Below, in pieces: positions 691 to 63,755 of a DNA stretch of 64,000 nucleotides (its first letter is position 1; each line of letters starts with the position of its first letter). The stretch covers positions 116,624,001 to 116,688,000 of the forward strand of contig NC_086097.1 of NCBI RefSeq assembly GCF_963921235.1, in the 5' to 3' direction. This DNA is from Mobula hypostoma (lineage: Eukaryota). The notes beneath the pieces are model-generated. The model had not been told where the DNA came from and did not search any database. It saw only the letters and a list, made by a program, of their open reading frames with translations. The position numbers were made by a program, and so were the translations under genes.

Positions 691-1584
691 AGATTGCAAA
701 CTTTTTACATTCATTCAATTAAGACCCTCACGATCTATCTTCTTCAATCAAGCCTTGATACCTTGAATTCTGGTGGACATGTGCCTATCGTGCCAGATAA
801 TCAAGACAGAAAGGACATTGGAACAGAGACTATTCAGAAGTTTGAGTTACTTCCTTCAGGTGAAAGCTGGCGAAACAAATTCTAATCATTGCAATATGTT
901 CATTAACTCTGTGATGTAGTCATTATTTAACACCAAGTTGCATGTACATGCTTTCTATTGTCAGTTTCTTTTCATACGAGCATATGAAGACTTGAATTTT
1001 GTTATTCATCTTTAGGCTTTGAATTTCCAGCATGTCAAAACTTTTTTGTCTAGGTGAATGAAATACTAGTGCTCATCTATCACAAATATTTGGAGAAAGC
1101 ACTGCAGGGTAGTTCCATGCATGTTAATGATAACACATGCTCATCTTGTGACAGTACCGCAGACATAATTTTCAAGTGTTTTGTTGAAAGAAAGAAGATG
1201 TAATTTATTTGGTGATAGGCGTGGGTGCCTTGTTGCCAAATAATTTGTTAATGAAATCTTGCTACCATTGTAGTGAAAAAGATAACTTCTGGGCAGAATC
1301 ACTGCTGGTCACTCCTTGTATCAAAGGTGAGGGATGAATCGCAGAACATAGATTGACCGAATGTGGCAAGTGGACAGGCAGCCAAATGATTGCACAGTAA
1401 ATCAATTGGGCCTCCTGCATGCAAGGGGCCCTTTCTTTCTCACGTGCTTTCAAGTGCATTTTTTTTTGATTCAGCAGCCCAGTTCATTGCTCTTTCACTC
1501 TAAGTTGCCTAGTGTGTACAGTGCTATCATGACTCAGTAAAAACACTTACCTTCTCCCTGACCTCTGCTTTCTGCTTTCTTTCC

Positions 1585-2305
1585 ATGATTCCCCTGTCCA
1601 TTTGTCCCTCCGTCCCGGCACCTACCCCTGCAAGCAGCCTAAGTGCCCATACACCTCCTCCCTTGCCTCCATTCAGGGCTCCAGGCAGCCCTTCCAGGTA
1701 AGGCAACACTTCACCTCCGAATCTGCTGGGGCACCCTATAGTGTCCAGCGCTCCCGTTGTGGCCTCCTCTACATACTGTAGGTGAGACACATCATAAATT
1801 GGAGGACAGCTTTGTCGAGCACCTCCACATCATCAACCATAAGTGGGATTTCCCAGTGGCCAAATATTTTAGTTCAGATTCCCAATCTGATATGTCAGGA
1901 TGCAGGAGCAGAACCTTATATTCTGCCTGGGTAACCTCCAACCTGATGGCATGAATATTGATTTCCCCTTCTGCTAAACAAATTTGCACCTCCGCTTTCC
2001 TCTATTCCCTACTGTGACCTTGTACCTCTTCTCAACTACCTATTACTTCCCCTGGGTCACCTCCTCCTTCTCCTATGGCACATTCTCTCTGATCAGATTC
2101 CGTCTTCTCCAGCCCTTGACCTTTCCCACCAACCTAGCTTTACCTAAAACCTTCCAGCTAGTCTCCTTCCACTTCCTCCCACCTTTTTAATCTGGCATCT
2201 TCCCCCTTTCTTCTCAGTCCTGAAGAAAGGTCTCGGCCCAAAATGTCGACTATCTATTCATTTCTATAGACAATGCCTGCCCTACTGTAGCATTTTGTGT
2301 GTGTT
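1585..2305 (+). mobile_element. Penelope-like element (Neptune type) 3' remnant: decayed GIY-YIG endonuclease plus pseudo-LTR with hammerhead motif
   Basis: Frameshifted 'FT.ESAG..Y...SRCGLLYI-GET...L.D.FVEHL' and 'EQNLIFCLGNLQPDGMNID', pyrimidine-rich spacer, then AGTC-CTGAAGA-AAGGTCTCGGCCC-AAAATGTC-GACT at 2216-2251. Confidence 0.8.
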
Positions 2306-3289: not shown

Positions 3290-4935
3290 ACAAGGGCTTT
3301 GATGCTTCACCTTCATGCTGCGTACGATAAAATGCAAGGTTAATCCATGACCCTGTGATCTCCGTCTCGGAGGCTGGCGTCAGAACACCCTTCAGAAGGG
3401 TAAAGCCCTGAAAAACATTTGACCCAGATGGCCTTCTTGGCTGAGTACTGAAGACCCGTGCTAATCATTTGGCTGAAGTGTTTACAGACCTCTTCAACCC
3501 TTTCACTGTGGCAGTCTGAGGTACCCACCTGCTTCAAGCATACCGGTGGCCAAGGAAAACATGGTAACCTGTCTCAATGACTGTTGTCCAGTAGTACCTA
3601 TCTATGTACAATGTAATGAAATGCTTCCTGAGGTTGGCCATGAAGCATATCAGCTCTGGAACATCTGGACTGTGAGGATGCATACAACGCATCAGAATGC
3701 TCTTCATTGACTCACTCAGCATTCAACACTATCTTTTCCTCAAAACTCATCACTAAGCTCCAAGAGCTGGCCCTTAGTACCTTTCTATACAACTGGGTTC
3801 TCAATTTCCTCACACATACACTCCAGTTATTATGGATTGGCAACACCATCTCTTCTACACTGGCCATGAGCAAGGATGCACCAGAGGGCTGTGTGCTTAT
3901 CCTCCTGCTCCACTCAGTTTACACCTATGATTGTGTGGCTAGGTACAGCACCAGTACCTTGCTGATGACACCTGTTGTTGGCCAAATCAAAGGTGCTGAC
4001 AAATCAACATATTGGAGGGAGATTAAAAATCTGTTTGAATGGTACCACAAAACAAACTCTCATCAGCAAAATCAAAGAGTTGATTATTGACTACAAGAGG
4101 AAGATATCAGAGGTCCATGACCCAGAAATCATTAGGGAATTGAAGGTGGAGAGGGGCAACAGCTTTAAATTCCTTGATGTTAACATATTAAAAGATCTGT
4201 CCTGCAACCAGCACATATGGTAAGTGCCTTCACAAAGAAGGCATGACAGCTTCTCTACTTTCCTAGAAGTTTGTGTAAATTTGGCATGTCATCAAAAACT
4301 TTGATAAAGTTCTACAGATGCACATTGGGGAGTATCCTAATTGGTTGCATCATGGCCATTTATGGACACACTAATGCCCAGGAATGGAAAAAGTTACACA
4401 AAGTGGTGGACAGAACCTAGTCCATCACAGAAAAACAGCCCTCCCCACAATTGAACACATTTATGTGGGACGCTACCACCAGAAAGCATCATTCATCATC
4501 AAAGACCCCCACCAACGAAGCCATACCCGCTTCTCACCAGAGACACTGGGCAGGATGGACAGGAGCCTGAGGTCCCACACCACCATGTTCAGGAACAGTT
4601 ATTATCCTACAACAATCAGGCTCCAGAACTGGCATGGGTAACTCCACTTGCCTCAACTCTGAACTCATTCTATAACTTAAGCCATAATTTTCAAGGATTC
4701 TTTTACAACTCATGATTGATCGATCGATTGATTGATTGATTGATTATTTATTTATTTATTTGCAAAGTTTGTCTTCTCTTGCACCTTGGTTGTTAGCTAT
4801 TTTTCTATTTATATATATTTTTTGTAGATTCTGTTGTACTTCTCCCGTAAATGCCTGCAAGAAAATGAATCTCTAGGTATTATATACTTTGATATATATA
4901 TATGTATACATGCATATACTTTGATAATAAGTTGA
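3290..4935 (+). mobile_element. Rex1/Babar-clade LINE, 5'-truncated and decayed
   Basis: RT motifs 'SAFNTI..KLITKLQEL....L.NWVL.FLT', 'APEGCVL...L.S.YTYDC'; downstream 'LYFLRSL.KFGMS...FYRC'; (GATT)n/(TATT)n in the 3' UTR; tail tactttgataataa. Confidence 0.85.
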
Positions 4936-5109
4936 CTGTGAACTACTTTGAACTATGAATTTGCTTAACAGCTTACATGTGATGCTTGAAATCATGCACC
5001 TTACTTGTAACTTCATGCAAGGCTTGCAGGCCTTTCTCTCTATGGGTGACTCAATCAACTATAAAGTTTCCAAGACAATTATCATAAACAAGAAAAAATC
5101 AGGAGAGCT

Positions 5110-5310
5110 GGAAATCCAAGCAAGATACACAAAATGCTGGAGGAACTCAGCAGTCCAGGCAGTATCTATGGAAAAGAGTACAGTCAACATTTCGGCCGAG
5201 ACCTTTCGGCAGGATTGGAGAAAAAAAAAAGGTGAGAAGTAGATTTAAAAGCTGGTGGTGGAGCGAGAGTGGTTAGAGAAACACAAGGTATAGGTGAAAC
5301 CAGGAGGCTA
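5110..5310 (-). mobile_element. Penelope pseudo-LTR-derived short repeat with degenerate hammerhead motif
   Basis: acacaaaatgctggaggaactcagca...cagtcaacatttcggccgagacctttcggcagga; the reverse complement gives CTGCCGA...GAAATGTT-GACTG. Confidence 0.75.
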
Positions 5311-5319
5311 ATTTTATAA

Positions 5320-6750
5320 ATTAGATAGATTAGTTTTATTTGTCACATGCATATTGAAACATACAGTGAAATGCATTGTTTGCATCAAATCAAATCTGTC
5401 ATGGTCCGGTCCGTGAACTCCGCATTCCGGTTCACGGTCCAGTCCATCGATCCATATTCCAGGTTTTCTGGTTTTCTCTTGTCTTGTTGTGTGCCTTAAT
5501 TGAGGCACATGATTCTGATTTTGGGCTGGCTACATAAACAGCTCCTGGGTTCAGCTTCAGTTGCTGGACTGTTCCTTTCCCTTCCTTTCACCTTCCTCCT
5601 GAAGCCTCTGCCTGCATCCTCGCCCTGAAGACTTGTCAGCAACCTCTCCTGCGTCCTCACCTGTATCCTGTCATGTTCTACCGCTGGAGCAAGACCGGAG
5701 CCTTGCTATGTCTAGATAAGGAACTGTCAATCACTGTTTGGAACTGTCTCTGTGTCCACACCTTCGCTAGGTATGTCTGACTGTTTGCCACTACCTTGTG
5801 TTGAGATCTGTCTCTGTGTCCACGCCTTCACTAGGTAGGTCCAACCCTTTGCCACTAATTTGTGTTAGGAACTGTCTCTCTGTGTTCTGTGTATGAGTCC
5901 CGGCCCTACGTCCTGTTCCCAAGGAGGGGTCCCGGCTCTGTGTTCCATGTTCCTATTCTCTCAAAACCCAGGCTCTGTGTTCCTGTCTCCCTCGACCAAG
6001 CCAAGACTTCGTGTTCTTGTCCTGTCCATGTGTCTTGCCCAGCCCAGGAGTACCTTGCTTAGCCTGGTGCTGGAGTTTCCTCATCCTGTCCAAGCCATGT
6101 CCAAGAAACTCGTCCTGTCCAAGTCAAGGCTTTGTGTTCTCATCCTGTCGATATGCCTCATCCTGTGCAAGAGTTCCATGTCCTGTTCTGTAGCCATGTC
6201 CTGTCCTTGCCAAGATGCTAATCCTGAGTCCTAGCCTAGACCCCGGTTCTAGTTCTGAGTCAAGACCCAGGTTCTGGGTCCTTGTCCAGGCTTTGGTTCC
6301 AGAGTTCTGTGTCACTAGTACAGGCTCCTTGTTCCTAGTTCCTTGTCTGGGTTCCTAGCCCAGGCCCTGCATCCTAGTCTCGTCCAGGGCCTGTGTCAAT
6401 GTCCAGCATCCTTTTTTTCCCCACTTCCCTTGCTTGCTTAACTCTAGCCCTAGTCCTGTTCCTATTATGTCAGTGTCTGTGTCTTGCATTTGGGTCCACT
6501 ACCAACACCCACCCCCATGACAAAATCAGCAAGGATTCTGCCGGGCAGCCCACAAGTGTCACCATTGTAGCATGCCCGCTCCTCACCAACCCTAACCAAA
6601 CGTCATTGGAATGTGGGAGGAAGCAGAGTGCACAAAGGAAACACGTAGTGACAGTGAGAATGTACAGGTTCCTGATAAGCAGCAATGGGAATTGAACCCT
6701 GCTTGATAATCGCTGGTATTGCAACAGCATCACGCCAACCCCTAACACTA
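5320..6750 (-). mobile_element. V-SINE variant split by a solo LTR
   Basis: Tail 5320-5396 and body/head 6523-6750 join to resemble the reverse complement of the uninterrupted copy at 19060-19325. Confidence 0.7.
5397..6522. mobile_element. Solo LTR (Gypsy-like), 1126 bp, with internal tandem repeats
   Basis: Ends TGTCATGG...CCATGACA (8-bp inverted termini) flanked by exact 5-bp TSD AAATC (5392-5396, 6523-6527); no retroviral ORFs inside. Confidence 0.8.
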
Positions 6751-6974
6751 CTCAGGTAGACCATTATTTTCTCCCGTATCCCATGTAGGATTCTGGATTA
6801 ATTTGGCCCCTGCAAATGTACATGAGTAGTGGAATCTAGGCAGTAGTGGGGAAGATAGCAGGAATGTACACAGAATATAATAGATTATGATAGGATTCAT
6901 GTGAAAATGTCATCTTGATAATCAACACAGAGTTGATGTACTAATGGGCTGAATGGGCCTATTTTGGTGTAGTG

Positions 6975-7690
6975 TCTCTTCATGAAGTTCATGGTAGCTA
7001 GAATTTGAAGGCAGAATACAGCATTAATGACAGGAGTTTTGGCAGTGTGAAGGAACAGGAGGATCTTCAGAGTCCACGTCCATAGATCACTCAAAGTTGC
7101 AGCTCAAGTTGATAGGGTTGTTAAGATGGCATATGGTATATTGGACTTCTTTAGTCAGGGGGTAAGTTCAAGAGAGACCAGGTAATGCTGCAGTTGTAAA
7201 CCGTTGGAATATTGTGTTCATTATAGGAAGGATGCAGACGCTTTAGAAAGGGTGCAGAGGAGATTTACTAGGATGCTGCCTGGACTAGAAGGTCACATGA
7301 GGATAGTTTGTGTGAGGTAGGGCTTTTCTCTTTGGAGTGAAAGAGGACCGGAGGTAATTTGATAGAGGTACATAAGATGGTAAGAGGCATAGATAGAGTG
7401 GATACCCAGACTTTTTTTTTCCAGTGTGGAAATGGCTAATATAAGGGGGAATCATTTTAAGGTGATTGGAGGAAAGTATGGGGGGAGATTTTGGAGGTAA
7501 GTTCTTTTCAAAGAGAGTGGTGAACGCATGGAATACCCTGCCAGGGGTGGTGGCAGAGGAAGATACATTAGGAGCATTTAAGAAACTCCTAGATAGGCAC
7601 ATGGATGCTAGAAAAATTGAGGTTTATGTATGAGGTTAGAGCCAAAAGGCCTCTATGTTGTTGTAACGTTCTTTGTTCTGCATATGTTCC
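6975..7690 (+). mobile_element. CR1 LINE 3' fragment
   Basis: Decayed CR1 ORF2 C-terminus (LERVQRRFTRMLPGL) and 3' UTR. Confidence 0.85.
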
Positions 7691-8084
7691 ATGACTCTGT
7701 GGCTCCAAATATCTACTGCAATCAATAGTCTTTGAATCGGTCAGTCAGTCAGTAATTTAATTATTTCAGGTTTGCAGATTGGGCTTTCATTATGCTAAAC
7801 TTGGCTTTTTGTATCCATGTTGAACACATTTCATCACGAATTGCCATTCTGTAAATTCTGAAGCGGTACTGTCACACACGATTAAGTCTTGCGCAAAATG
7901 GAGGTCAACCTGCCTCATAATGCAGATGTGCAAATGTCATATTGGAAGGAAATCAGCACCCAGTGCAGCTGGCAACTGATGCTCTGCAGTCATGGCTTAT
8001 GCTATACATTGTACTTTTCTCATAATTTCCTCCAATTGCTCATCCACTAATCGACCTCACAACCCCAACCCACCAAACACAGGC

Positions 8085-8097
8085 GCGCGCGCACACG

Positions 8098-8129
<32 letters not shown>

Positions 8130-8150
8130 CGCACACACGCACACACGCAC

Positions 8151-8182
<32 letters not shown>
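8085..8182. repeat. (CA)n/(CACG)n microsatellite
   Basis: Direct reading. Confidence 0.95.
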
Positions 8183-8219
8183 TTATCAGATAATGAATAA
8201 ATATTCATAAGAAATACAA

Positions 8220-8902
8220 AAAACACATGGCAGTGCCTCTTTTTTAGAAGTTTGGCAGATTTGGCATATCATCTAAAACTTAGACAAACTTCTATAGATG
8301 TACAGTGGATAGTATCCTGAATGGTTGCATCATGGCCTGGCACGGAAACAACAATGCTCATGAATGACAAAGCCTAAAAAAGTAGTGGATGCAGCCGACT
8401 CCATCACAGGAAATGCACTCCCCGTCATTGAGCACATCTACAAGGAGTACTGCCACTAGAAAGCAGCTTCTATCATCGTCAAGTACCCCCACCATCTAAG
8501 CTATGCTCTCTTCTCACTGGAGGTACAGGAGTTTTAGGTCCCACACCACCAGATTCAAGAACAGGTATTAACCCTTCAACCAAATGGCTCCTGACCAGAG
8601 TGGACAGCTTCAGTTAGCTTAATAATGAACTAATTCCATGACCTTTGGACTCCCAGTTTCAACTCATATTCTCAATATTATGTGCTGCTTGCTTATTTAT
8701 TTGTTTGTTTGTTTGCTTGCTTGTTTGATTGATCTATTTGTTTATTTATTTATTTATTTATTGTTTTACCCGTTTCCCCTCTTTGCACATTAGCTGTTTG
8801 TCTGCCTTCATTTGCATGTAGTTTTTCATTTATTTTATTGTATTTCTTTGTTCTACTGTGAATGCCCGCAAGAAAATCAATCTTATGGTAGTATGTATTG
8901 AC
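8220..8902 (+). mobile_element. Rex/Babar 3' fragment; its tail resumes at 15726-15775 after the Gypsy insertion
   Basis: 'TNFYRCTVDSILNGCIMAWHGN'; tail ...agaaaatcaatcttatggtagtatg | gtgacatatacagtatgtactttgat. Confidence 0.8.
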
Positions 8903-11814
8903 GATTGTGTATTTAGTATTTGAGTAGTTTTGAAAATATATTATTCTATTACACATTCTTTTTTGCTTCCATAATTCATCACAGGTTATATGTAGAAGCA
9001 CAGGAACAGTATGCGTCATTAGGCTACCGCATCATAAGCGCATGCCTCACTTCAAATAAAGAACAAAGCAGACACGCATGCCCTGGCTCTGTGATTTTTC
9101 CTTTTGAATACTGTTATGTTTGGAGTTACAAAACATAATGGTGGTGACAAGAATGTTTTAATACGAACCTGAAATGACTACCTACCTGTTGAAGTGTAGT
9201 GAGACATCTGAGTTTAAAAAAATGCAACATGTTCTATCTTCGGGGTATGGTGAGGAGGAGAAGGACGGTCATTTTAAAGAAAAGTCAGAAAACAGATGAA
9301 ATTCATGGGTTCATAAATAGTGAGTGCTGTGTGATAATAATAAATTCTTAAAAAGCAGAAATGGCTGGCTACATCAGAAAGATGCAGAAGACATGTTCAA
9401 TTGTACAACAAATAAATAGATTTTGTATAACGAGCAAATTAAGCAGTATTTGGAAGCAAATAAGATAGCCAATGAGAATAAAGTGCCAGTTTTTCTGAGT
9501 ACAATTGTTGGATGAGCATACAGTTTTCTTAGAAGTTTTCCAATGAAACCAGCCAAAATGAGCTTTGCTGATTTTTATGAAAGTTATGTAGGAACATTTA
9601 AAACCAAAACCATTTTTGACTGCAGAATGTCTTAGTTTCATAAATGGAATCAGAAGGGTTGGAAGTCTATTTCAGAATATGTGGCTGAACAGAAGAAATT
9701 ATTTAAGCATTGGAACTTCAGTAAAGGGCTTAATGACGCAATGAGAAAGCGTTTAGTTTGTGGTCTCTTCATTCAAAAACGGCACCTAACTGAGGCAAAA
9801 CTCATATTTAAAAGAGCAGTTGAAATTGCTGCAACAATGGTGTTTTGTTTATTTAATATTTCAGTAATATTTGAGTAATGTGAATATGTTGTTTGATTAA
9901 GCATTCTTTGATGTTTACATGTTCATTATGGGTTATATGTAAAAGTACATGAATGGCATTTGATATTACACCATCACAACATATGTGCATGGCTTGCTAA
10001 CGTAAAGAACAAAGAGTAATGTTTATCCATGTCTCCGGTGTTTTTGATTAATTTATGGATTTACAAAACATAACAGTAGTGATGAGGAAGATTTAAAATA
10101 AACCTGAGATGACTACTTACCTGTTGAAATGCAGCGAGACAGTCCAGTTAAAAAAGGCAAAAAATTGACAAAATTCACAGGTTCATAAACAGTAATAACA
10201 AGAAGATTATACTAAAAAGATACAAAGCAGAAATGGCTGGCTACATCAGAAAGACAGATGTGTTTGATTGCACAAAAGATAACTGGTTGATGTATAATCA
10301 GCAAATTCAGCAGCATTTTGAAGCAAATAAAGTAGCCAATGACAAGCGATTGCCAGATTTGTTGAATGTAATAGGTGCAAGAGCATAGAGCTTTCTTAGA
10401 ATATTAACTGCACCAACCAAACCAGCTGAAAGTAATGGAGGAACATTTAAAATCAAAACTATTGCTGACTGCAGAACCCCTTCGGCTCATAAGTGGAATC
10501 AAAAGGAAGGGCAGTTTCTTTTCGCATACAGTATGTGGCTGAATTGAAGAAGTTATCTGAAAACTACCAGTTCAGTGATGGGCTGAAGGAGGTATTGAAT
10601 GATTATTTAGTTGCTGCGATCTTACAATAAGCTATTCCAAAACAGCTCCTAACTGAAGCATAACTCACATTTAAAAGGGCAGTCAATATGATTGTATCGA
10701 TGGAAACAGTAAACAGAGATGCAATTGAGTTACAGTGAGGAATGAAAGTCAGCATGAACAAAATTGCGATGACTAAACAGAAACTAGCCTGGCTGGGGCT
10801 CACGTACACTGGACCAATGCAGGTTTTCAGGTGTTGCAGAAAGTGCAAGAAATAGACTGCTCAGGAAAGAGAAGAAGATAAAAAGTCAATTAGCAGTTTC
10901 AAAAAGAGGACTAATCTGCATGCTGATGAAAAATCTGATAATGGTGAGAGTGATAAAGGTCAGGGAAGCTTTGATATTTACAATGTGAAAATTAACAAGA
11001 GACAAGCAATATGGCTTACGCCAGAAGTGAATGGCAAATTAACTAAAATGGAATTGGGCACTACCTTGGCTATTTCAGTCATTCCACAAAATAAGTTTAA
11101 ATGTCATCTCAAAGATACTGAACAGATTTCAAACTAAGAACATGCGGTATACTGGGGAAAAGATAACTCCTGTGTGAATAACATTCATAACAGTGAAATA
11201 CAACAACTATCAAGCCACATTAGGTTTCTAATGTGGTTAAAACAGAAGGACCAGCACTTGGGGCCATGATTCGTTGAGACAATGACAACTTGACTGGAGA
11301 TCCTTCCATAATTTACATCCCCTGTGATAGAGTCAACTGGAAGTGAATTAGGGACGATTCTAGATAATGCCACAGAAAACTCAACATATCAAGGGTAAAA
11401 GAGTACTAAGTTTAAATGCCGCACCCAAGTTTTACAAAGACCATCTGGTTCCTTATACAATCTGGGATAAATTACCAGGGAGTTAGATCACATGGAGACT
11501 GAAGGAATTCTTTCCACAATTGTGTGAAGCCCATGGGCAATGCCAGTGGTCCCAGTAGCCAAGAAGAATGGGTCTGTCAGGATCTGTGGTAAATTTAAGG
11601 TCTCCATCAACTCAGTACTGAAAGTAAATCAATACCCTCTTTCCAGGATAGAGGATACCTTTGCAAACCTTTCTGGAGTGAAACACTTTAGCAAAGTGGA
11701 CTTAGCTAAGGCCTACATACCAAAGGATATGGAAGAAAAATCTGAAGTTCATAAACACGTTCAAAAGTCTTTATCAGTATAAAAGGCTTATCTTTGGAGT
11801 AGCATCTCCACGCA

Positions 11815-11958: not shown

Positions 11959-12996
11959 AAGTCTTCCTGTTACATCAGAGATAATCCAAAGGAGACCAGA
12001 AAAGACCCAAACGGTCTCAGATCCACATGGCAAACGAAAATGACTGAAATATGCTGCCAAAATCCCAGTTGCCCCATTTTACCAGCACCATGATGAACTT
12101 GTCTTTGATGGGGTTTGCCTTATGTGGGGATTATGAGTTGTTGTACCATCCAAGCTGAGAGATGAAGTGTTGGAGGAGCTATAGGCCGGTGATCTATGTG
12201 CAGTCAAAATGAAAGCCTTGGCTTGAAGCTTTGTCCTGTGGCCTGGGATAGATCAGCAGATCACGCATCTTGCAATGAACTGTATGAGGTGCCAAAGCAT
12301 GCAGAAGATGGCAAAAACAGCGCCTCTCCATCCCTGGGAATTGCCTTTAAGCCCTGGCAGAGGATTCATGAAGATTTTTCCAGACCATTCATGGAGACAT
12401 ATTTCTTGTGGTAGTGGATGATGCATCTACAGAGTGGCCAGAAGTGTTCCCAATAGTCTCCACTACAGCCTTGCACACTGTTGATGTGATAAGGATCCTT
12501 TTCTCAAGGACTAGTGTTCCAGAACACCTAGTCAGTGACATTGGAACACAGTTTGTTGTGGAACAGTTTCAGTTCCTGAAAATTAATAGAATAAGACATA
12601 TTACTTTTGCACTGAACTGCCCAGCTACAAACGACTTGGCGGAAAGGTTTGTCCAGAATGTCAAGGAGGCATTCTTTGCAATGTTAGCAGAACACACCAC
12701 ATCGACACTGAATCAGAAGCTTGCCAATTTCATTAATTCATATCACAATGCAGCACACTCCACAACCAACAACTCACCAGCTATGCTGTTCCTGGGTTAT
12801 CCCCTGTGCTTATGCTTGCATCTGCTCAAGCCCAATCTCAGAAAGAGTATGCAGGAAAAACAGCAGAGATAAAGTGAGGGCTCCTCGAACAAGGAGGTTC
12901 AATGTTTCACTCTTGGAAAAGGAGTCCTGGTAAGGGACCACAGAGATTATCAAAACTGGGCACTTGGAAAGATACCTAACATTGACTAGCATCTCC

Positions 12997-25849: not shown

Positions 25850-26510
25850 GCACACCAAAAGCAGGAGGAACTCAGCAGGTCAGACAGCACCTATGGAGGG
25901 AAAAAAACAATCGATATTTCAGGTCAAGACTCTTCATCAGGACTGAAAGATAAAGGAGAGAATGCCAGAATAGAAAAGGTGGAGGGAAGGGGTGGAGCAA
26001 GAGCAGGCTGGTGATAGGTGGAAGCAGGTGAAAGGGAAATGATATGCAGATGAGGGAGAGAGTGAGAATGATTTAGGAAGCTGATGGGTGATTGTGTGAT
26101 TGGTACACATGTTAAAGTTCTGAAGAAGATGGAATATGATAGGAGATGGTAGTGGAAATGGAATAAGGAGAAGGAGGTGGGGAGGGAAACCAATGGGAGG
26201 AGTGTGTAGGAGAAGGGCAAATGGAGAGAGTGGGGGAAGAGAAAGAGACAGGGTGATGAGATCGATAGGAAAAAAATAAGAGGGAAGGAAGGGGAAAAAA
26301 GGGAGTGGTTACCGGGAATTTGAGAATTCGATGTTCAGGTTGGAGACTACCAAGGCAAAACATGAGATGCTGTTCCTCTGGCTTGCACCAACAATGGAAG
26401 AGGCGATGGACAGACATTGTTGGTGTGGGAATGGGATGCTACCTGACCTGCTGAGTTCCTAGAGCTCCTTTGCATGATTCCCACCATCTGCAGTCTCTTG
26501 TGTCTCTGCT
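25850..26510 (-). mobile_element. Penelope-like element 3' remnant with an inverted partial pseudo-LTR at its truncated end
   Basis: Hammerhead motif 25908-25945 (-); GIY-YIG C-terminus 'EEQHLMFCLGSLQP' (-); inverted 'gatgctacctgacctgctgagttcct' at ~26435 (+). Confidence 0.82.
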
Positions 26511-38916: not shown

Positions 38917-39165
38917 CTGCTCCAAGGCAAAGTATTGAACTTTACTTTGATGAAAAATACTCCATTGAACCTTCTTGGGAATGCAAATTTGACCACATTG
39001 AAGTGCGGGATGGACCTTTTCCATTTTCTACTGAAATTGGACGTTACTGTGGTCAAAATGTTCCACCTTTTGTAACATCATCGGGCAGATTTTTATGGAT
39101 TAAATTTGTTGCTGATGGTGAGCTTGAATCTATTGGATTTCTGGCAAGATACAACTTTATACCAG
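38917..39165 (+). CDS. NETO1: NETO1 coding exon 4, rest of CUB1 ([83 protein letters not shown])
   Basis: tttag| 249 nt |gtaatt, phase 1-1, stop-free; '[16 protein letters not shown]' and 'ADGELES' fit NETO1 better than NETO2 (from recall of the paralogues). Confidence 0.96.
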
Positions 39166-46814: not shown

Positions 46815-47133
46815 TGCTATTAGTGTTTGCGGCAGCAATGAAGGTCCTCCATCTCTGTCTGTCCATTCTGTCACATACAGATAAAGAAGGATTCTTCGTT
46901 GCTGTTTCTGTAACAATTTTGTTCTGACCAGTCAGGCTTGCTAGCCCTGAGCTGAATCCTAAAACCTGGAGAACCAGTGGACCACTCGTCATGTGACCTC
47001 TATCTTGTGACCTGTTTGGTATGGGTAACCCTAGCAAGAGCCAAATTAGAAGTCCCTGACTCCAGCCAACATAGCTTGCTGGGTCATTGAGGCACACAGG
47101 CCTCCAAACCCAATGACAAGATCCTCTTGGAGG
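46815..47133 (-). mobile_element. Bipartite non-autonomous RTE (Expander/Rex3-like) derivative
   Basis: Minus strand: RTE-type 5' UTR ('agctatgttggctgg...tagggttacccataccaaacaggtc') joined to ORF-end motif 'DRQRWRTFIAA'. Confidence 0.6.
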
Positions 47134-47237: not shown

Positions 47238-47340
47238 TGACACACATCAAGGTTGCTGGTGAATGTAGCAGGCCAGGCAGCATCTCTAGGAAGAGGCACA
47301 GTCGACGTTTCAGGCCGAGACCCTTCGTCAGGACTAACTG
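47238..47340 (-). mobile_element. Penelope pseudo-LTR-derived short repeat
   Basis: acacacatcaaggttgctggtgaatgtagcaggccaggcagcatctctagg...; same family as 5110, 29055 and 59020. Confidence 0.8.
47300..47335 (-). ncRNA. Minimal type I hammerhead ribozyme motif, core intact
   Basis: Minus strand AGUC-CUGACGA-A-GGGU(CUCG)GCCU-GAA-ACGU-C/GACU: stem I AGUC/GACU, stem II, palindromic ACGU in place of stem III, GUC cleavage triplet. Activity not shown. Confidence 0.78.
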
Positions 47341-50349: not shown

Positions 50350-50745
50350 ATCATCGCAAGTTCATCTTCCTATTGCCATTCTGACGTGTCTTCCAAGCCA
50401 TTCTCTACTCCCATGATGAGCTGCACTCCAGTTGGATGAACAGCACCTCATATTCCGTCTGGGTAGCCTCCAAGCTCATGGCATGAACATTGACTCCTCT
50501 AACTTACAGTGATTTCTCCTCCTTCTTCCTTTTCTCTTTATCCATTCCCAATTCTGGCTTCTCTCCTACCCCTTCTCCTCATCTCCCCATTACTCCCTCT
50601 GAAGCCCCACTTTCTACCTATACTCCTGTGGTCCACTGTTCTCTCTTATTAGATTCCTTCCACTTTAGCCCCTTTATCTCTTCAACCTATCACCTCCTAG
50701 CTTCTTACTTCATCACCCACCCCCTCCCCATCCGCCCAATCAGAT
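50350..50745 (+). mobile_element. Penelope GIY-YIG C-terminus plus pyrimidine-rich 3' region
   Basis: 'LDEQHLIFRLGSLQAHGMNID', homologous to ~1900-2190. Confidence 0.75.
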
Positions 50746-52380: not shown

Positions 52381-54976
52381 TGAAGGTGAAAAAATATAGA
52401 GTGTTTTGGGAAAAGAGAAAGAATAGGACTAATTGGATAACTCGTTCAAAGGGTTAGTGCCAGCATAGAGTTTGAATGGCTTCAGTTTGTGCTGTCTCAT
52501 TCTGTGATTCTGTGAAATATTCAGCAGTTCTCAGTGGGACAGAATTCCAGCCAAGCAGTTAATGTTTATTTTATTTTACAATGGCAGATTTGTTGTGCAG
52601 GGAAAATGACACTTCACAATTCCCAAGTGCTGCCTCTGTGCAAATGAAGGATGCACTCCCACTTTTGTCGTGTAGAATGAGTTTTTCATGGCCATTAACT
52701 TAATTATATTTTTCATTTCTGGCACCGAGGGGAAAATTTGACATTCCGAGCACAGGCAGATTTATTAATGAAGGTCTGGTGCTAATATTTCTGTCCCCCT
52801 TCACTCAAGAGATTAGAATGTCCCAGGGTTATTTGTGATGGCATATTGGAACATGCTGTTCTAGAATGATGAGCAGCAAACTATTCAGTGAAAATTATAT
52901 GCAAGTTGTAGGGGAAAGAATAGTGAGTGTTAATAATTAGTCAATATGGATATGGATTGTGTTGATGTGATAACAGGGAGCCATAGACAAAAACAGAGGC
53001 ATGGAATGCAGCAGCAACAACACCCAAGTTTCAGGAACTTCACTCATTATGTTACAGTCTTCACCCATTGCTCTAGACCTGTTGATAGTCCTGCTGTTTG
53101 GTAATCAGGACCTAGCCTGCTATTTCATTAAGCCTTCCTGTTACCAGGTTTATGTTATCAAGATATAGTTTCACTGGGTTTAGCAGCCATGTACTGTATC
53201 TGTTCTCGACCTGCATTGCATTCTGTGTTGAGCATTAATTATGTTTATTATGGTAGTTCATCACGTGGGTGGGTGGTGTGGTAGAAGTGAAGAGTTTTAA
53301 TTACCTGTTCGTACTTTTTAGAGTCTGTCTGGTAAGTTTATAACTAGGGAGTAGGTCGGGGTGATATCTTTATGTTGACCGTTTAATTTCATTTAATTAT
53401 TTTTGTGTTTAACTACACTTAATTTTGTTAGTCTTAGTGTTATTAGTTTCACCACTTCAAGCCTGTTTGTTTTGCTAAATACTAATAAAGGATCAAATAC
53501 ATTTCTTTGACTTTGAACATTAATATTATTGGATTTTATGGAAGATGTGTCAACCAAGATTAACACCCCTTCCCATTTTCTTGTGCCTAGTCTCTAAGCA
53601 ATGCTGGTTTGTTTGAGTAGACATGACACTGGTAGTCTTGTCAACTGAGAATGTAAAAGCTGTATAAAATTTATGGTCAGGTAGATTGGCTTTTGTTGGT
53701 CTCCCGGTGTGCAGCAGTTTTTAATAAATCGCCTGTTATTCGAACACTGACACTGTGTGATCTTTGAGTTTGCTCCTACAGAAATACATATATTTATTAT
53801 TATATATAATATACAGTAATAAAATGGCTTTGCATTGAAAAGATCTATTCATGCTTCGGCTTGTTCCAAAACACGTTACACCAAATGTTTTTGGAAAAAA
53901 AATTGTTATGTATGAAATGCAATTAACAATATTCCACAAGCAACAAATAAATGGAGAGAAAATCTGATATCTTATTGATTTTATTTAACAATAACTATTA
54001 TTCAAGATACTGGAAGGAATTTCAGTGTTCTTCTTCACAGTTAAGGCGTGGTATGTTTTGCTTCAACCTGAGAGGTTTTGGTTTCATTTTGTAAAGTGCT
54101 ATACTCGTTTGATGCTACAGCAAAATACCAAATTGGTTAGTGGGTAGAAAATTTTCTTCTTCCACTTGTGCAAAACATGCAATGTACGCAGCTTGTGCCA
54201 ATTCACTGCCAAAGTTTGACTCTATTGAATGCAAGGAATCAACTTTTGAAGCAGAAGGCAGGACAGACCCACTATTATATGCGTCCATTGACCAAACCTG
54301 CATCTCTAACCCTGTGCAACTAAATTGGGACTTAAGTCAAAAGCATTCCAATTCTTTTCGTTTTAAATCTTTTTATTAACAGCATTCCAATTCAGAGGCA
54401 AGAATGTACCACCAGTGAATTAAGAGTAAAACACTCATTGTAAGCCTAATGCTACAGTATCTATTAAGGATATTATTAAAATTACTATTAAGAAAATTAT
54501 TAAAATGTGAAAGATGAAGCAGGTTTTGATTGCCAAGCTTTAGTTAGATAGTGAAAACTCAGGGAAAATTGAGAGTATTCAAGTAAGTTCTTCGATGAAT
54601 GAAATTAGAATGGCTTAGAATTCATATCATTGCCAACACAGTGATTGAAGATGAAAAGAAAGCAAAGAGTTTCTTCTGCCACAAACAAGACCCAGGGGCA
54701 ACCTGGATGTCACAGGGTAGTGGGAAATACAAGTTAGTAGCCCTTGAAAGTTGGATCGAAGATTATAATGCAGCATTAAGCCATGCTGTTTGGTTCAAAG
54801 CCAGATAGCAGTCTAATGCCCACTAATTACAGCATGTCAGAAGCTCCAATCACATTGTTATGTCTTTATGCATCCCCGCAAATCAATAAAATGAACATCT
54901 AGCATCAAGCCACTATTACCCTTGTGATTACACATCAACCAGGCATTCTTGACTACTGAGGTCCAGTCTGAAGCCA

Positions 54977-57900
54977 GGTCTGGTGTGGAGAGCCCACCTG
55001 TGGCTGTCCCCCTCAGTAACAAGTATCTTGTTCTGGATGCTGTTGAGGGGGATGACCTGACAGGGGACGGCCACGGTGACCGGGTCTCTGGCAGTAGGCC
55101 TGGCACTGTTGTGCAGGAGGGAGGGAGGGAGAAGAGGAATGTGGTAGTCATAGGGGATTCCATAGACAGGGGAACAGACAGGAGATTTTGTGAAGCTGAT
55201 AGAGATACCCATATGGTGTGTTGCCTCCCAGGTGCCAGGGTATGGGATGTCTCGGATCGGGTCCAGAATATTCTGAAGGGAGAGGGTGAGCAGCCAGTTG
55301 TCTTGGTACATGTTGGTACCAATGACATAGAGCAGGTCCTGAAGAGAGATTTCCGGGAGTTAGGAAGGAAGCTGAGAAGCAGGGCCTCCAGGGTAGTAAT
55401 CTCGGGATTGCTGCCTGTGCCACATGCTAGCGAGGGCGAGAATAGTAGGATCAGGCAGATGTATGCGTGGCTGAGAGACTGGTGCAGGGGGCAGGGCTTC
55501 AGATTCTTGGATCATTGGGATCTCTTCTGGGGGAAGTATGACCTGTTCAAAATGGACTGGTTACACCTGAACCCGAAGGGGACCAATATCCTGGTGGGAA
55601 TGTTTAATAGAGCTGTTAGGGAGGGTTTAAACTAATTTGGCAGGGGGATGGGAACCGGAATGCAAGAGCGGAGGAAGGGTAAAACAGAAATAAATCTAAG
55701 ATAGTGAGCAATAAAGATTTCAGGAAAGACAGGCAGGTGATGGGGCAAATTTGTAGCCATTGGGATGAGTTGCAGTGCAATAAAGTTGCAGTGCAATCAA
55801 AGCAAACAGTACCAAATACTGGTCTTAAGGTGTTATACTTAAATGCACGCAGCATAAGGAATAAGGTGGATGATCTTGTCGTACAGCTACAGATTGGCAG
55901 GTATGATATTGTGGCCATCACTGAGACGTGGCTAAAGGATGCATGTCTCTGGGAGCTGATCGTCCAAGGATACACGGTGTATCGGAAGGATAGGAAGGTA
56001 GGCAGAGGGGGAGGCGTGGCTTTATTGGTAAGAAATGATATCAAATCATTAGAAAGAGGTGACAGAGGATCAGAAGGTGCAGAATCTTTGTGGGTTGAGC
56101 TAAGAAATCGCAGGGGTAAAAGGACCCAGATGGCAGTTATATACAGGCCTCCAAACAGCTGTAGTGATATGGACTACAAATTACAACAGGAAATAGAAGA
56201 GGCTTGTCAGAAGGGCAGTGTTATGATCATTGTGGGGGATTTTAACATGCGAGTGGATTGGGAAAATCAAATCGGCACTGGATCTCAAAAGAGAGGATTT
56301 GTAGAATGTCTGTGGGATGGCTTTTTAGAACAGCTTGTTGTTGAGCCCACTAGGGGATCGGCTGTACTGAATTGGGTATTGTGTAATGAACTGGAGGTGA
56401 TTAAAGAGATTGAGGTGAAGGAACCCTTTGGAGGCAGTGATCATAACATGATTGAGTTCACTGTGAAATTTGAAAAAGAGAAGACGAAATCCGATGTGTC
56501 AGTATTTCAGTGGAGTAAAGGAAATTATAGTGGCATGAGAGAGGAACTGGCCAAAGTTGACTGGAAAGAGACACTGGCAGGAAAGACGGCAGAGCAGCAG
56601 TGGCTGGAGTTTATGTGAGAAGTGAGGAAGGTGCAAGATAGGTATATTCCAAAAAAGAAGAAATTTTTGAATGGGAAAAGGATGCAACCGTGGTTGACAA
56701 GAGAAGTCAAAACCTAAGTTAAAGCAAAGGAGAGGGCATACAAGGAAGCAAAAATGAGTGGGAAGACAGAGGATTGGGAAGTTTTTAAAAGCTTACAAAA
56801 GGAAGCTAAAAAGGTCATTAAGAGGGAAAAGGTTAACTATGAAAGAAAGCTAGCAAATAATATCAAAGAGGATACTAAAAGCTTTTTCAAGTATATAAAG
56901 AGTAAAAGACACGTGAGAGTAGATATAGGACCGATAGAAAATGATGCTGGAGAAATTGTAATGGGAGATAAGGAGATGGCAGAGGAAATCAATGAGTATT
57001 TTGCAACAGTCTTCACTGAGGAAGACATCAGCAGTATACTGGACACTCAAGGGTGGCAGGGAAGAAAAGTGTGCGCAGTCACAATTACGACAGAGAAAGT
57101 ACTCAGGAAGCTGAATAGTCTAAAGGTAGATAGATCTCCCTGACCAAATGGAATGCACCCTCGTGTTCTGAAGGAAGTAGCATTGGAGATTGCGGAGGCA
57201 TTAGCGATGATCTTTCAAAAGTCGATAGATTCTGGCATGGTTCCGGAAGACTGGAAGATTGCAAATGTCACTCCGCTATTTAAGAAGGGGGCAAGGAAGC
57301 AAAAAGGAAATCATAGACCTGTTAGTTTGACATCAGTGGTTGGGAAGTTGTTGGAGTCGATTGTCAAGGATGAGGTTACTGAGTACCTGGAGGCATATGA
57401 CAAGATAAGCAGAACTCAGCATGGTTTCCTTAAAGGAAAATGCTGCCTGACAAACCTATTATGATTTTTTGAGGAAAATACAAGTAGGCTAGACAAGGAA
57501 GATGCAGTGGATGTTGTATATTTGGATTTTCAGAAGGCCGTTGACAAGGTGCCACACATGAGGCTGCTTAACAAGATAAGAGCCCATGGAATCACGGGAA
57601 AGTTACATACGTGGATAGAGCGTTGGTTATTGGCAGGAAACAGAGAGTGGGAATAAAGGGATCCTTTTCTGTTTGGCTGCCGGTTACCAATGGTGTTCCA
57701 CAGGGGTTTGTGTTGGGGCCGCTTCTTTTTACATTGTACATCAACGATTTGGATTATAGAATAGATGGCTTTGTGGCTAATTTTGCTGATGATACGAAGA
57801 TAGGTGGAGGGACCAGTAGTGCTGAGGAAACAGAATGGCGGTGCTGGCTCGAAGGGCTGAATGGCCTACTCCTGCAACTATTGTCTATTGTCTAGTCTGC

Positions 57901-58785
57901 AGAGAGACTTGCGTAGATTGGAAGAATGGGCAACGAAGTGGCAAATGAAATACAATGTTGGAAAGTGTACGGTTATGCACTTTGGCAGAAGAAATAAATG
58001 GGCAGACTATTATTTAAATGGGGAGAGTATTCAAAGTTCTGAGATGCAACAGGACTTGGGAGTCCTCGTGCAGGATACCCTTAAGGTTAACCTCCAGGTT
58101 GAGTCACTGGTGAAGAAAGCGAATGTAATGTTGGCATTCACTTCTGGAGGAATAGAGTATAGGAGCAGGGATGTCATGTTGAGGCTCTATAAGGCGCTGG
58201 TGAGACTTCACTTGGAGTACTGTAGGCAGTTTTGATCTCCTTATTTAAGAAAGGATGTGCTGACATTGGAGAGGGTACAGAGAAGATTCACTAGAAGGAT
58301 TCCGGGAATAAGAGGGTTAACATATGAGGAACGTTTGTCTGCTCTTGGACTGTACTCCTTGGAGTTTAGAAGAATGAGGGGGGACCTCATAGAAACATTT
58401 TGAATGTTGAAAGGCATGGACAGAGTGGATGTGGCAAAGTTGTTTCCCATGATGGGGGAGTCTAGTACAAGAGGGCATGACTTAAGGATTGAAGGGCACC
58501 CATTCAGAACAGAGATGTGAAGAAACTTTTTTCGCCAGAAGGTGGTGAATCTATGGAATTTGTTGCCACGGGTGGCAGTGGAGGCCAAGTCATTGGGTGT
58601 ATTTAAGGCAGAGATTGATAGGTATCTGAGTAGCCAGGATATCAAAGGTTATGGTGAGAAGGCGGGGGAGTGGAACTAAATGGGAGAATGGATCAGCTCA
58701 TGATAAAATGGCGGAGTAGGCTCGATGGGCCGAATGGCCGACTTCTGCTGCTTTGTCTTATGGTCTTATGGCCTTATGGTCTTTT
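54977..58785 (+). mobile_element. Long CR1 LINE: ORF1 esterase (SGNH) part plus disrupted ORF2 (APE and RT) and 3' tail
   Basis: ORF1 'VVIGDSI', 'PGA', 'HVGTND', 'DWLHLN' (stop 55635); ORF2 'LYLNARSIRNK', 'TETW', 'GDFN', 'SDH', 'GVPQG..LGPLLF..YIND', 'FADD'; in-frame stops (e.g. 56616, 57141, 57462); tail (ttatggtc)n. Confidence 0.95.
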
Positions 58786-63502: not shown

Positions 63503-63755
63503 AAACCTGCCGAAGGATTTTGGCCCGTAACGTCGACTGTACTATGTTCCTGGATGCTGCCTGGCCTGCTGAGTTCCTCCTGCATTTTGTGTGTGTAGAT
63601 CCGTAAAAAACTCCTTTTTTTTGCTGTTTATTGCAATTCACACAAAATACTGGAAGAACCCAGTAGGTGAGGCAGCATCTATGGAGAGAAATAAAAATGT
63701 TGACGGTTCGGTGGAGAACCCTTCATCAGGATTGCTGAGTTCCTCCAGTATTTTG
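63503..63755. mobile_element. Two Penelope pseudo-LTR repeats tail-to-tail (+ 63503-63597; - 63639-63733 with short inverted tail to 63755)
   Basis: CTGCCGA-AGGATTTTGGCCC-GTAA-CGTC-GACT on +; CTGATGA-AGGGTTCTCCACC-GAAC-CGTC on -. Confidence 0.78.

What the first reader, a model, noticed from the sequence alone, without database searches (positions are those of the whole stretch)
47300..47335. Intact 36-nt minimal hammerhead ribozyme antisense in NETO1 intron 4
Seen: the - strand reads AGUC CUGACGA A GGGU-CUCG-GCCU GAA ACGU C GACU. All core nucleotides (CUGANGA, GAAA, GUC site) are present, stems I and II pair, and stem III is replaced by the self-complementary tetramer ACGU. Established: Penelope-like retroelements carry minimal type I hammerheads of this form, which are thought to cleave as dimers via the palindromic stem III. 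Inference: this is the best-preserved copy here (its CpGs are retained) and could be catalytically competent, here without any adjacent coding sequence.
Basis: partly seen in the sequence, partly recalled or inferred. Interest (0 to 1): 0.8.

Follow-up and report, generated by a model that had tools for sequence, protein, structure and literature searches.

The report
Penelope retroelement stub carrying minimal hammerhead
The 36 bases are a real minimal hammerhead ribozyme motif inside a 101-base leftover of a Penelope-like jumping gene, repeated letter for letter about 33,000 times in this ray genome, so this copy is ordinary and likely does nothing for the NETO1 gene it sits in.

Summary
The motif is there as described (47300-47335, minus strand, antisense in the ~215-kb intron 4 of NETO1). 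It is not free-standing. It is the core of a 101-nt, 5'-truncated copy of the end of a 3.5-kb Neptune-type Penelope-like element (RT, Zn-linker, GIY-YIG), whose long copies carry the motif in both pseudo-LTRs. The exact 36-mer occurs 32,886 times in the genome, twice more in this intron. The copy is probably inert. It has G·U at the usually G-C 10.1-11.1 pair, its predicted monomer fold buries the core, it has no tandem partner, and the host transcript carries its reverse complement. No compensatory changes were seen in 156 copies.

Side results:
- 5' ends of copies pile up at the outer edge of stem I (26 of 100 within 17 nt), not at the cut site.
- An older subfamily spread with a broken core (A6C).
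Together these suggest cleaved RNA is rarely copied and catalysis may be dispensable.

The kind is known (Cervera and De la Pena 2014). The scan noted this family and the hotspot before on other DNA.

The parts
47300..47335 (-). Minimal type I hammerhead motif (36 nt); predicted scissile bond between 47304 and 47303
   Evidence: identical 36-mer 32,886 times in the genome
47240..47340 (-). Whole insertion: last 101 nt of the Penelope-like element, 5'-truncated 37 nt upstream of the cut site, without the ~38-nt tail; no target-site duplication seen
   Evidence: 95.05% identical to the 3' end of near full-length copy L035; flanks read; junction position
47332..47335 (-). Stem I 5' strand; its first two letters also complete a pyrimidine-tract + YAG motif in the element, and mark the family-wide 5'-end hotspot
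47312..47323 (-). Stem II, 4 bp with CUCG loop; closing pair 10.1-11.1 is G·U
   Evidence: G-C variant has 4,891 exact copies
47305..47308 (-). Palindromic ACGU in place of helix III (dimer interface by the published model)
   Evidence: ACGT in 141 of 156 copies
38917..39165 (+). NETO1 exon 4 (CUB1); the insertion lies 8.1 kb into the following intron, antisense

Best explanation
The motif is the minimal hammerhead of a highly amplified Penelope-like retroelement, carried on a 101-base 5'-truncated copy that is likely a dead-end product of one retrotransposition event and likely inert. Shown: parent elements are ~3.5-kb units with RT, a CX4CxxC linker and GIY-YIG, with the motif about 100 nt from the unit end in both pseudo-LTRs. 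Inferred, by analogy with the anole element PAc (PMC11167929): the element's protein nicked the intron and started reverse transcription inside the RNA ~70 nt downstream of the cut site. It copied an uncleaved RNA through the hammerhead and stopped at its outer edge, where about a quarter of the family's copies stop. I think the stop is most likely run-off at an RNA 5' end made by transcription starting at the initiator-like YCAGT/TTAGT there (about 45%). Alternatives are a block at the splice-acceptor-like site or bound protein (35%), or cDNA pairing and microhomology (20%). In the parent element the motif probably acts, if at all, as a weak dimer- or protein-assisted ribozyme that is not needed for copying.
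For: Identity and context: 95% to the 3' end of L035. L035 and L036 carry the motif twice, 3,513 and 3,514 bp apart, around the ORF. GIY-YIG E=2e-4 to 1e-3 and RVT_1 E=5e-3, all under Pfam's cut-offs. There are 638 homologues, the best a bamboo-shark protein at 67%. Abundance: 32,886 and 4,891 exact 36-mers, 73,875 exact 3' anchors, 56,299 RT candidates. Family hallmarks: inverted 5' partners, and 3' ends in two classes, 60 of 100 short and 40 of 100 with tail. Uncleaved template: about 1,240 flank-joined 5' ends at -31 against about 13 at the cut site. Inertness: hammerhead-compatible monomer fold p<0.001, stems I/II paired 0.06/0.2 in 300-nt context; antisense to the host; nearest intact same-strand copy found is ~84 kb away.
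Against: No RNA data bear on this locus, so silence is inferred. All invariant core letters are present, so the RNA could cleave in vitro as a dimer or with the element's protein. Folding predictions ignore tertiary and protein effects. No target-site duplication was found for this copy, whereas most flank-joined relatives have one. A perfect initiator in the young subfamily sits at -36, yet the peak is at -31, which fits the run-off idea imperfectly. Neptune placement rests on motifs, not a tree.
Confidence: 0.9

Rival explanations
1. A host-adopted, active ribozyme that cuts an antisense transcript and thereby influences NETO1, like the conserved intronic hammerheads of amniotes.
For: Core intact; conserved intronic hammerheads exist in RECK, CTCL and DTNB (passage in PMC6155905).
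Against: Young copy, 95-98% like tens of thousands of others. It lacks helix III and tertiary loops, has G·U at 10.1-11.1, misfolds as a monomer in prediction and has no partner. A single S. mansoni minimal motif showed no cleavage in vitro (PMC4209133).
Confidence: 0.03
2. The ~100-140-nt pieces are a non-autonomous mini-element (retrozyme- or SINE-like) that is transcribed and spreads by itself, rather than truncation products of the long element.
For: 42 of 100 copies begin within 39 nt upstream of the cut site or downstream of it up to +8, many at nearly the same base, and often have clean target-site duplications.
Against: 5' ends form a continuum up to more than 860 nt. Short copies carry the same letters as long ones. 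No head-to-tail array of the short unit was seen in the loci read, and retrozymes are defined by such arrays (bioRxiv 2026.07.22.740005).
Confidence: 0.06
3. The motif is kept for a non-catalytic job (splice acceptor, initiator or protein-binding site) and only looks like a ribozyme in this lineage.
For: Pyrimidine tract + YAG ending on stem I's first letters in young and older subfamilies. A subfamily with A6C reached hundreds of copies or more (530 pattern hits; 9 of 10 loci share distinct flanks). No compensatory changes seen. This bears on the parent element and is compatible with the best explanation for this copy.
Against: Older subfamilies keep the whole 36-mer as the majority sequence while both flanks differ. 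The same architecture is published for PLEs across animals, with weak cleavage shown.
Confidence: 0.2

Closest known systems
Minimal hammerheads (min-HHR) in pLTRs of metazoan Penelope-like elements: Xena, Poseidon, Neptune (Cervera and De la Pena 2014, PMC4209133; parts 1-2 of 4 read)
   Same: Type I, no helix III, palindromic 15.1-16.1 segment, extra nucleotide between 9 and 10.1, short helix I, mostly solitary copies from truncated elements.
   Different: G·U instead of the conserved G10.1-C11.1 in the dominant young subfamily; 4-bp helix II; tens of thousands of identical copies against 4,000-9,000 varied motifs reported for coelacanth and Xenopus.
Neptune-clade EN+ Penelope-like elements (Craig et al. 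2021, PMC8557442; passages read)
   Same: RT then CX2-5CxxC linker then GIY-YIG with CCHH, partial tandems, inverted 5' partners, 30-40-nt tail, frequent 5' truncation.
   Different: Clade not tested on a tree; a sharp 5'-end hotspot at stem I is not described in the passages I saw.
PAc (Poseidon of Anolis carolinensis; Frangieh et al. 2024, PMC11167929; parts 1-2 of 4 read)
   Same: Two 3'-end classes differing by a tail; genomic copies derive from uncleaved RNA; hammerhead upstream of the RT start sites.
   Different: In PAc the ORF starts inside the hammerhead; here the likely start codon is ~140 nt past the cut site. PAc belongs to the Penelope/Poseidon clade, which lacks the Zn-linker.
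Animal non-LTR retrozymes (Li et al. 2026, bioRxiv 10.64898/2026.07.22.740005; part 1, section 14 and passages read)
   Same: Type I hammerhead, derived from PLE pLTRs, present in a chondrichthyan.
   Different: Retrozymes are tandem arrays; this is a solitary truncated copy.

Membership tests
PLE minimal hammerhead | Core CUGANGA, GAAA, UH | tested here: met
PLE minimal hammerhead | Helix I of 4-5 bp and a helix II, no helix III | tested here: met
   AGUC/GACU plus U·G; 4-bp helix II
PLE minimal hammerhead | Extra nucleotide between 9 and 10.1; palindromic 15.1-16.1 | tested here: met
   A at 47324; ACGU
PLE minimal hammerhead | G10.1-C11.1 pair (described as highly conserved, not invariant) | tested here: not met
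   G·U here and in 32,886 copies; G-C in 4,891 and in much of the depth from other organisms' contigs (30-86%, rough)
PLE minimal hammerhead | Located in the pLTR of a PLE | tested here: met
   L035, L036
PLE minimal hammerhead | Compensatory changes in stems | tested here: inconclusive
   None in 156 mostly young copies; 41 older copies show decay around one majority sequence; distant relatives' DNA not obtained
PLE minimal hammerhead | Self-cleavage as dimer or with protein | not testable with these tools
   needs in vitro assay
EN+ Penelope-like element | Single ORF with RT and C-terminal GIY-YIG | tested here: met
   1043-aa open frame in L035, frame-shifted across the YIDD motif; DKG, RT and GIY-YIG motifs
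EN+ Penelope-like element | Partial tandems, inverted 5' partners, optional 30-40-nt tail | tested here: met
Neptune clade | CX2-5CxxC linker and CCHH motif | tested here: met
   CKRNKCYTC linker; CSRC..H..H in the EN; definition from PMC8557442
Neptune clade | RT phylogenetic placement | not tested
   no named reference PLE proteins on hand
Non-LTR retrozyme | Tandem array with two or more consecutive hammerhead-bearing units | tested here: not met
   single copy between unrelated flanks
Domesticated intronic hammerhead (RECK type) | Canonical three-helix motif | tested here: not met
   no helix III; no Rfam match
Domesticated intronic hammerhead (RECK type) | Conserved at the orthologous site across species | not tested
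   no relative's genome held for this window

The most novel reading that the evidence does not exclude
This ray's more than 70,000 young insertions are a fossil read-out of the Penelope RNA template. Reverse transcription runs off at the first bases of the hammerhead because the element's RNA begins there, cleaved RNA is almost never copied, and a lineage with a dead core (A6C) still spread. The hammerhead would then be a 5'-terminal passenger or regulator, not the processing step of transposition.
Probability: 0.35. Interest if true: 0.5.

Novelty: new member of a known kind. Interest (0 to 1): 0.2.

Why it matters
This single copy matters little. The family bears on an open question: Craig et al. 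2021 state that hammerhead function in EN+ PLEs is still unclear (passage). Two genomic facts here speak to it without bench work: flank-joined 5' ends are roughly 60-fold commoner at the outer edge of stem I than at the scissile bond, and a core-mutant subfamily amplified. Both agree with the in vitro result that cleavage is not needed for PAc insertion.

Tried and rejected
Rfam: no hammerhead hit, whole window at gathering score or locally by E-value.

RNA evidence: no RNA holder listed and no raw reads, so ends and strand could not be examined. Contigs of 8 of 24 runs were laid. The joints shown included no GT..AG skip ending at the hammerhead, but 42 joints were not shown and a candidate donor in the EN region lay outside the stretch laid, so splicing is untested.

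Spliced templates as cause of the hotspot: rejected for flank-joined copies, since the duplicated target abuts or nearly abuts the element and no shared extra sequence lies between.

cDNA fold-back through stem I: only 95 exact junctions, a minor route.

Cleavage-site run-off: 544 hits with a purine at -1 were mostly substitutions (28 of 41 read; 11 inverted, 1 flank, 1 other, three rows reclassified by eye).

Papers: Lunse et al. 2017 was not held and is cited only through PMC6765202. Searches gave no paper on this family in rays or on the 5'-end hotspot. Supplement file 1 of PMC4209133 could not be searched, bioRxiv supplements were not seen, and Repbase was not available; any of these may already list the family.

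Full report
Observation. The window holds 46 CUGANGA words, against 40.4 expected by chance; only this one passes a descriptor that also asks for stems I and II, GAAA and UH. The 36-mer folds no better than shuffles (z -0.37), and Rfam has no match. The host gene is NETO1: the exon at 38917-39165 is 99% identical to a named ray isoform and 94-95% to shark and chimaera proteins. Four coding exons lie in the window and exon 5 at window-equivalent ~253,790. The motif is thus antisense, 8.1 kb into an intron of about 215 kb.

What it belongs to. A search of the 3.48-Gb genome gave 2,058 candidates, 40 scored, the best 96-98% identical over 96 nt. The window's similarity stops 5 nt upstream of stem I, but 22 of the 29 other loci share more than 300 nt upstream: a pyrimidine-rich 3' UTR and, in the longer ones, the end of an ORF with a GIY-YIG motif. 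Of 12 long-frame regions fetched, L035 and L036 show the whole unit: partial pLTR with the motif, ~40-nt tail, ORF, ~290-nt UTR, motif again, 3,513 and 3,514 bp apart. The L035 frame is open for 1,043 codons but shifted across the YIDD motif seen in other copies. It has the DKG motif, a CX4CxxC linker and CCHH. Pfam scores are weak and under cut-off, but 638 homologues exist, the best from a bamboo shark at 67%. By the motif definitions in PMC8557442 (passages) this is Neptune-type; I built no tree. The window copy equals the last 101 nt of the unit (95.05% to L035).

Abundance. The exact 36-mer occurs 16,386 + 16,500 times, control 0; the G-C variant of pair 10.1-11.1 4,891 times; a 3' anchor 73,875 times. 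Two more identical 36-mers lie on the same strand in the same intron, near window-equivalent 131,900 and 247,800. In 264 kb around the window there are 32 copies of all ages.

Could this copy cut? All invariant letters are present. Against activity: (a) G10.1·U11.1, where PMC4209133 reports a highly conserved G-C; (b) the predicted monomer pairs G5-G8 with the cleavage strand, the open-core fold has p<0.001, and in 300-nt context stems I and II form at 0.06 and 0.2; (c) single minimal motifs did not cleave and dimers did so weakly, and the PAc motif needed the element's protein; (d) no tandem partner; (e) NETO1 transcripts carry the reverse complement. No RNA data were available. In 156 core-intact copies from my loci (chosen by searches on this family, so biased to young ones) no stem pair showed a compensatory change; variation was mostly CpG decay. 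In 41 older copies the majority sequence is the same 36-mer while both flanks differ, which suggests the block was conserved between subfamilies.

How such stubs arise. I read the first 100 exact 3' anchors on contig C1. 3' ends fall into two classes, 60 short and 40 with tail, like the two internal RT start sites of PAc. Relative to the cut site (0), 26 of 100 5' ends lie at -39..-23, 7 of them at -31. Stops per base at risk are 2.2% there, against 0.44% at -22..+18 and 0.33% at -160..-40 (binomial p 6e-11; the interval was chosen after seeing the data). A second set of 40 incidental copies had 7 at -32..-26 (partly neighbours of selected loci). The window copy's junction is -37.

Genome-wide check of the hotspot. 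2,865 copies have a non-A at -32 against 151 substitutions at an internal A; 1,389 have a non-G at -31. Of the first 30 such loci, 13 join flank, mostly with a target-site duplication (two are one duplicated locus), 13 join an inverted piece and 4 are substitutions (two rows reclassified by eye). At the cut site 544 of 33,337 have a purine at -1. Of 41 read (41 of the first 42 listed) 28 are substitutions, 11 inverted, 1 other and 1 flank-joined. That gives about 1,240 against 13 flank-joined ends. Correcting for letters the patterns cannot see gives roughly 60-fold, but this rests on one event, so only 'more than about tenfold' is safe. Cleaved RNA is therefore rarely the template.

Why the stop? 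Not shown. The sequence just upstream is both initiator-like and splice-acceptor-like (consensus motifs recalled). D. virilis Penelope has its start site and an intron in the pLTR (PMC2377424 passages), the intron ending at helix I. Spliced templates and cDNA fold-back are minor at most. I favour run-off at an RNA 5' end (45%), then a block at the acceptor or a bound protein (35%), then microhomology (20%).

A core-mutant lineage. A pattern with A6C has 530 hits; 9 of the 10 loci read share flanks unlike the young family, and two window copies (5149, 63570) are of this kind. A6 is a conserved core position (established knowledge), so this subfamily probably spread without a working ribozyme; in 3 of those 9 the 5' end is at or next to -32.

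Comparison and verdict. The motif class, its place in pLTRs and its solitary truncated copies were described in 2014 (PMC4209133). My searches found no paper on this ray family or on the hotspot, but unseen supplements and Repbase may hold the family. Earlier notes of this scan, looked up after my tests, report the same family and hotspot on other DNA; they are not independent support. New member of a known kind; this copy is ordinary; interest 0.2.

Noticed in passing
window 5149-5214 (-) and 63506-63570 (+); L184-L193: Older subfamily whose hammerhead core reads CUGCCGA (A6C); 530 pattern hits genome-wide, 9 of 10 loci with shared distinct flanks.
   Followed up: partly
window 2214, 25827, 29049, 51466, 58992, 60875, 63629: Further decayed copies of older subfamilies of the same element end, on both strands.
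   Followed up: partly
window 1578-1976, 26316-26417, 50368-50505: Remnants of the Penelope-like endonuclease region.
   Followed up: no
window 46831-47120: Another decayed repeat 120 nt from the insertion (75% over 292 nt to L197); it resembles the 5' part of RTE-type elements (recalled). An earlier scan note reports a twister at the start of such an element; not tested here, no Rfam match.
   Followed up: no
window 54928-58232 (+): Broken LINE of CR1/L2 type: GDSL-esterase-like ORF1, AP endonuclease and RT pieces (30 of 98 open stretches scanned).
   Followed up: no
window 12372-12869 (+): Weak integrase-core match (rve, E 9e-4), a fragment of an LTR-type element.
   Followed up: no
G000 window-equivalent ~206,465: Alternative last exon of a short one-CUB NETO1 isoform inside intron 4, matching the end of protein P0122.
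   Followed up: no
L032:1-5377: Tandem array with a period that is a multiple of 28 bp, over 5 kb long.
   Followed up: no
G000 window-equivalent 177,174 and 181,582; L145/L146: Local duplications about 4 kb apart that each copy the same insertion with identical flanks.
   Followed up: no
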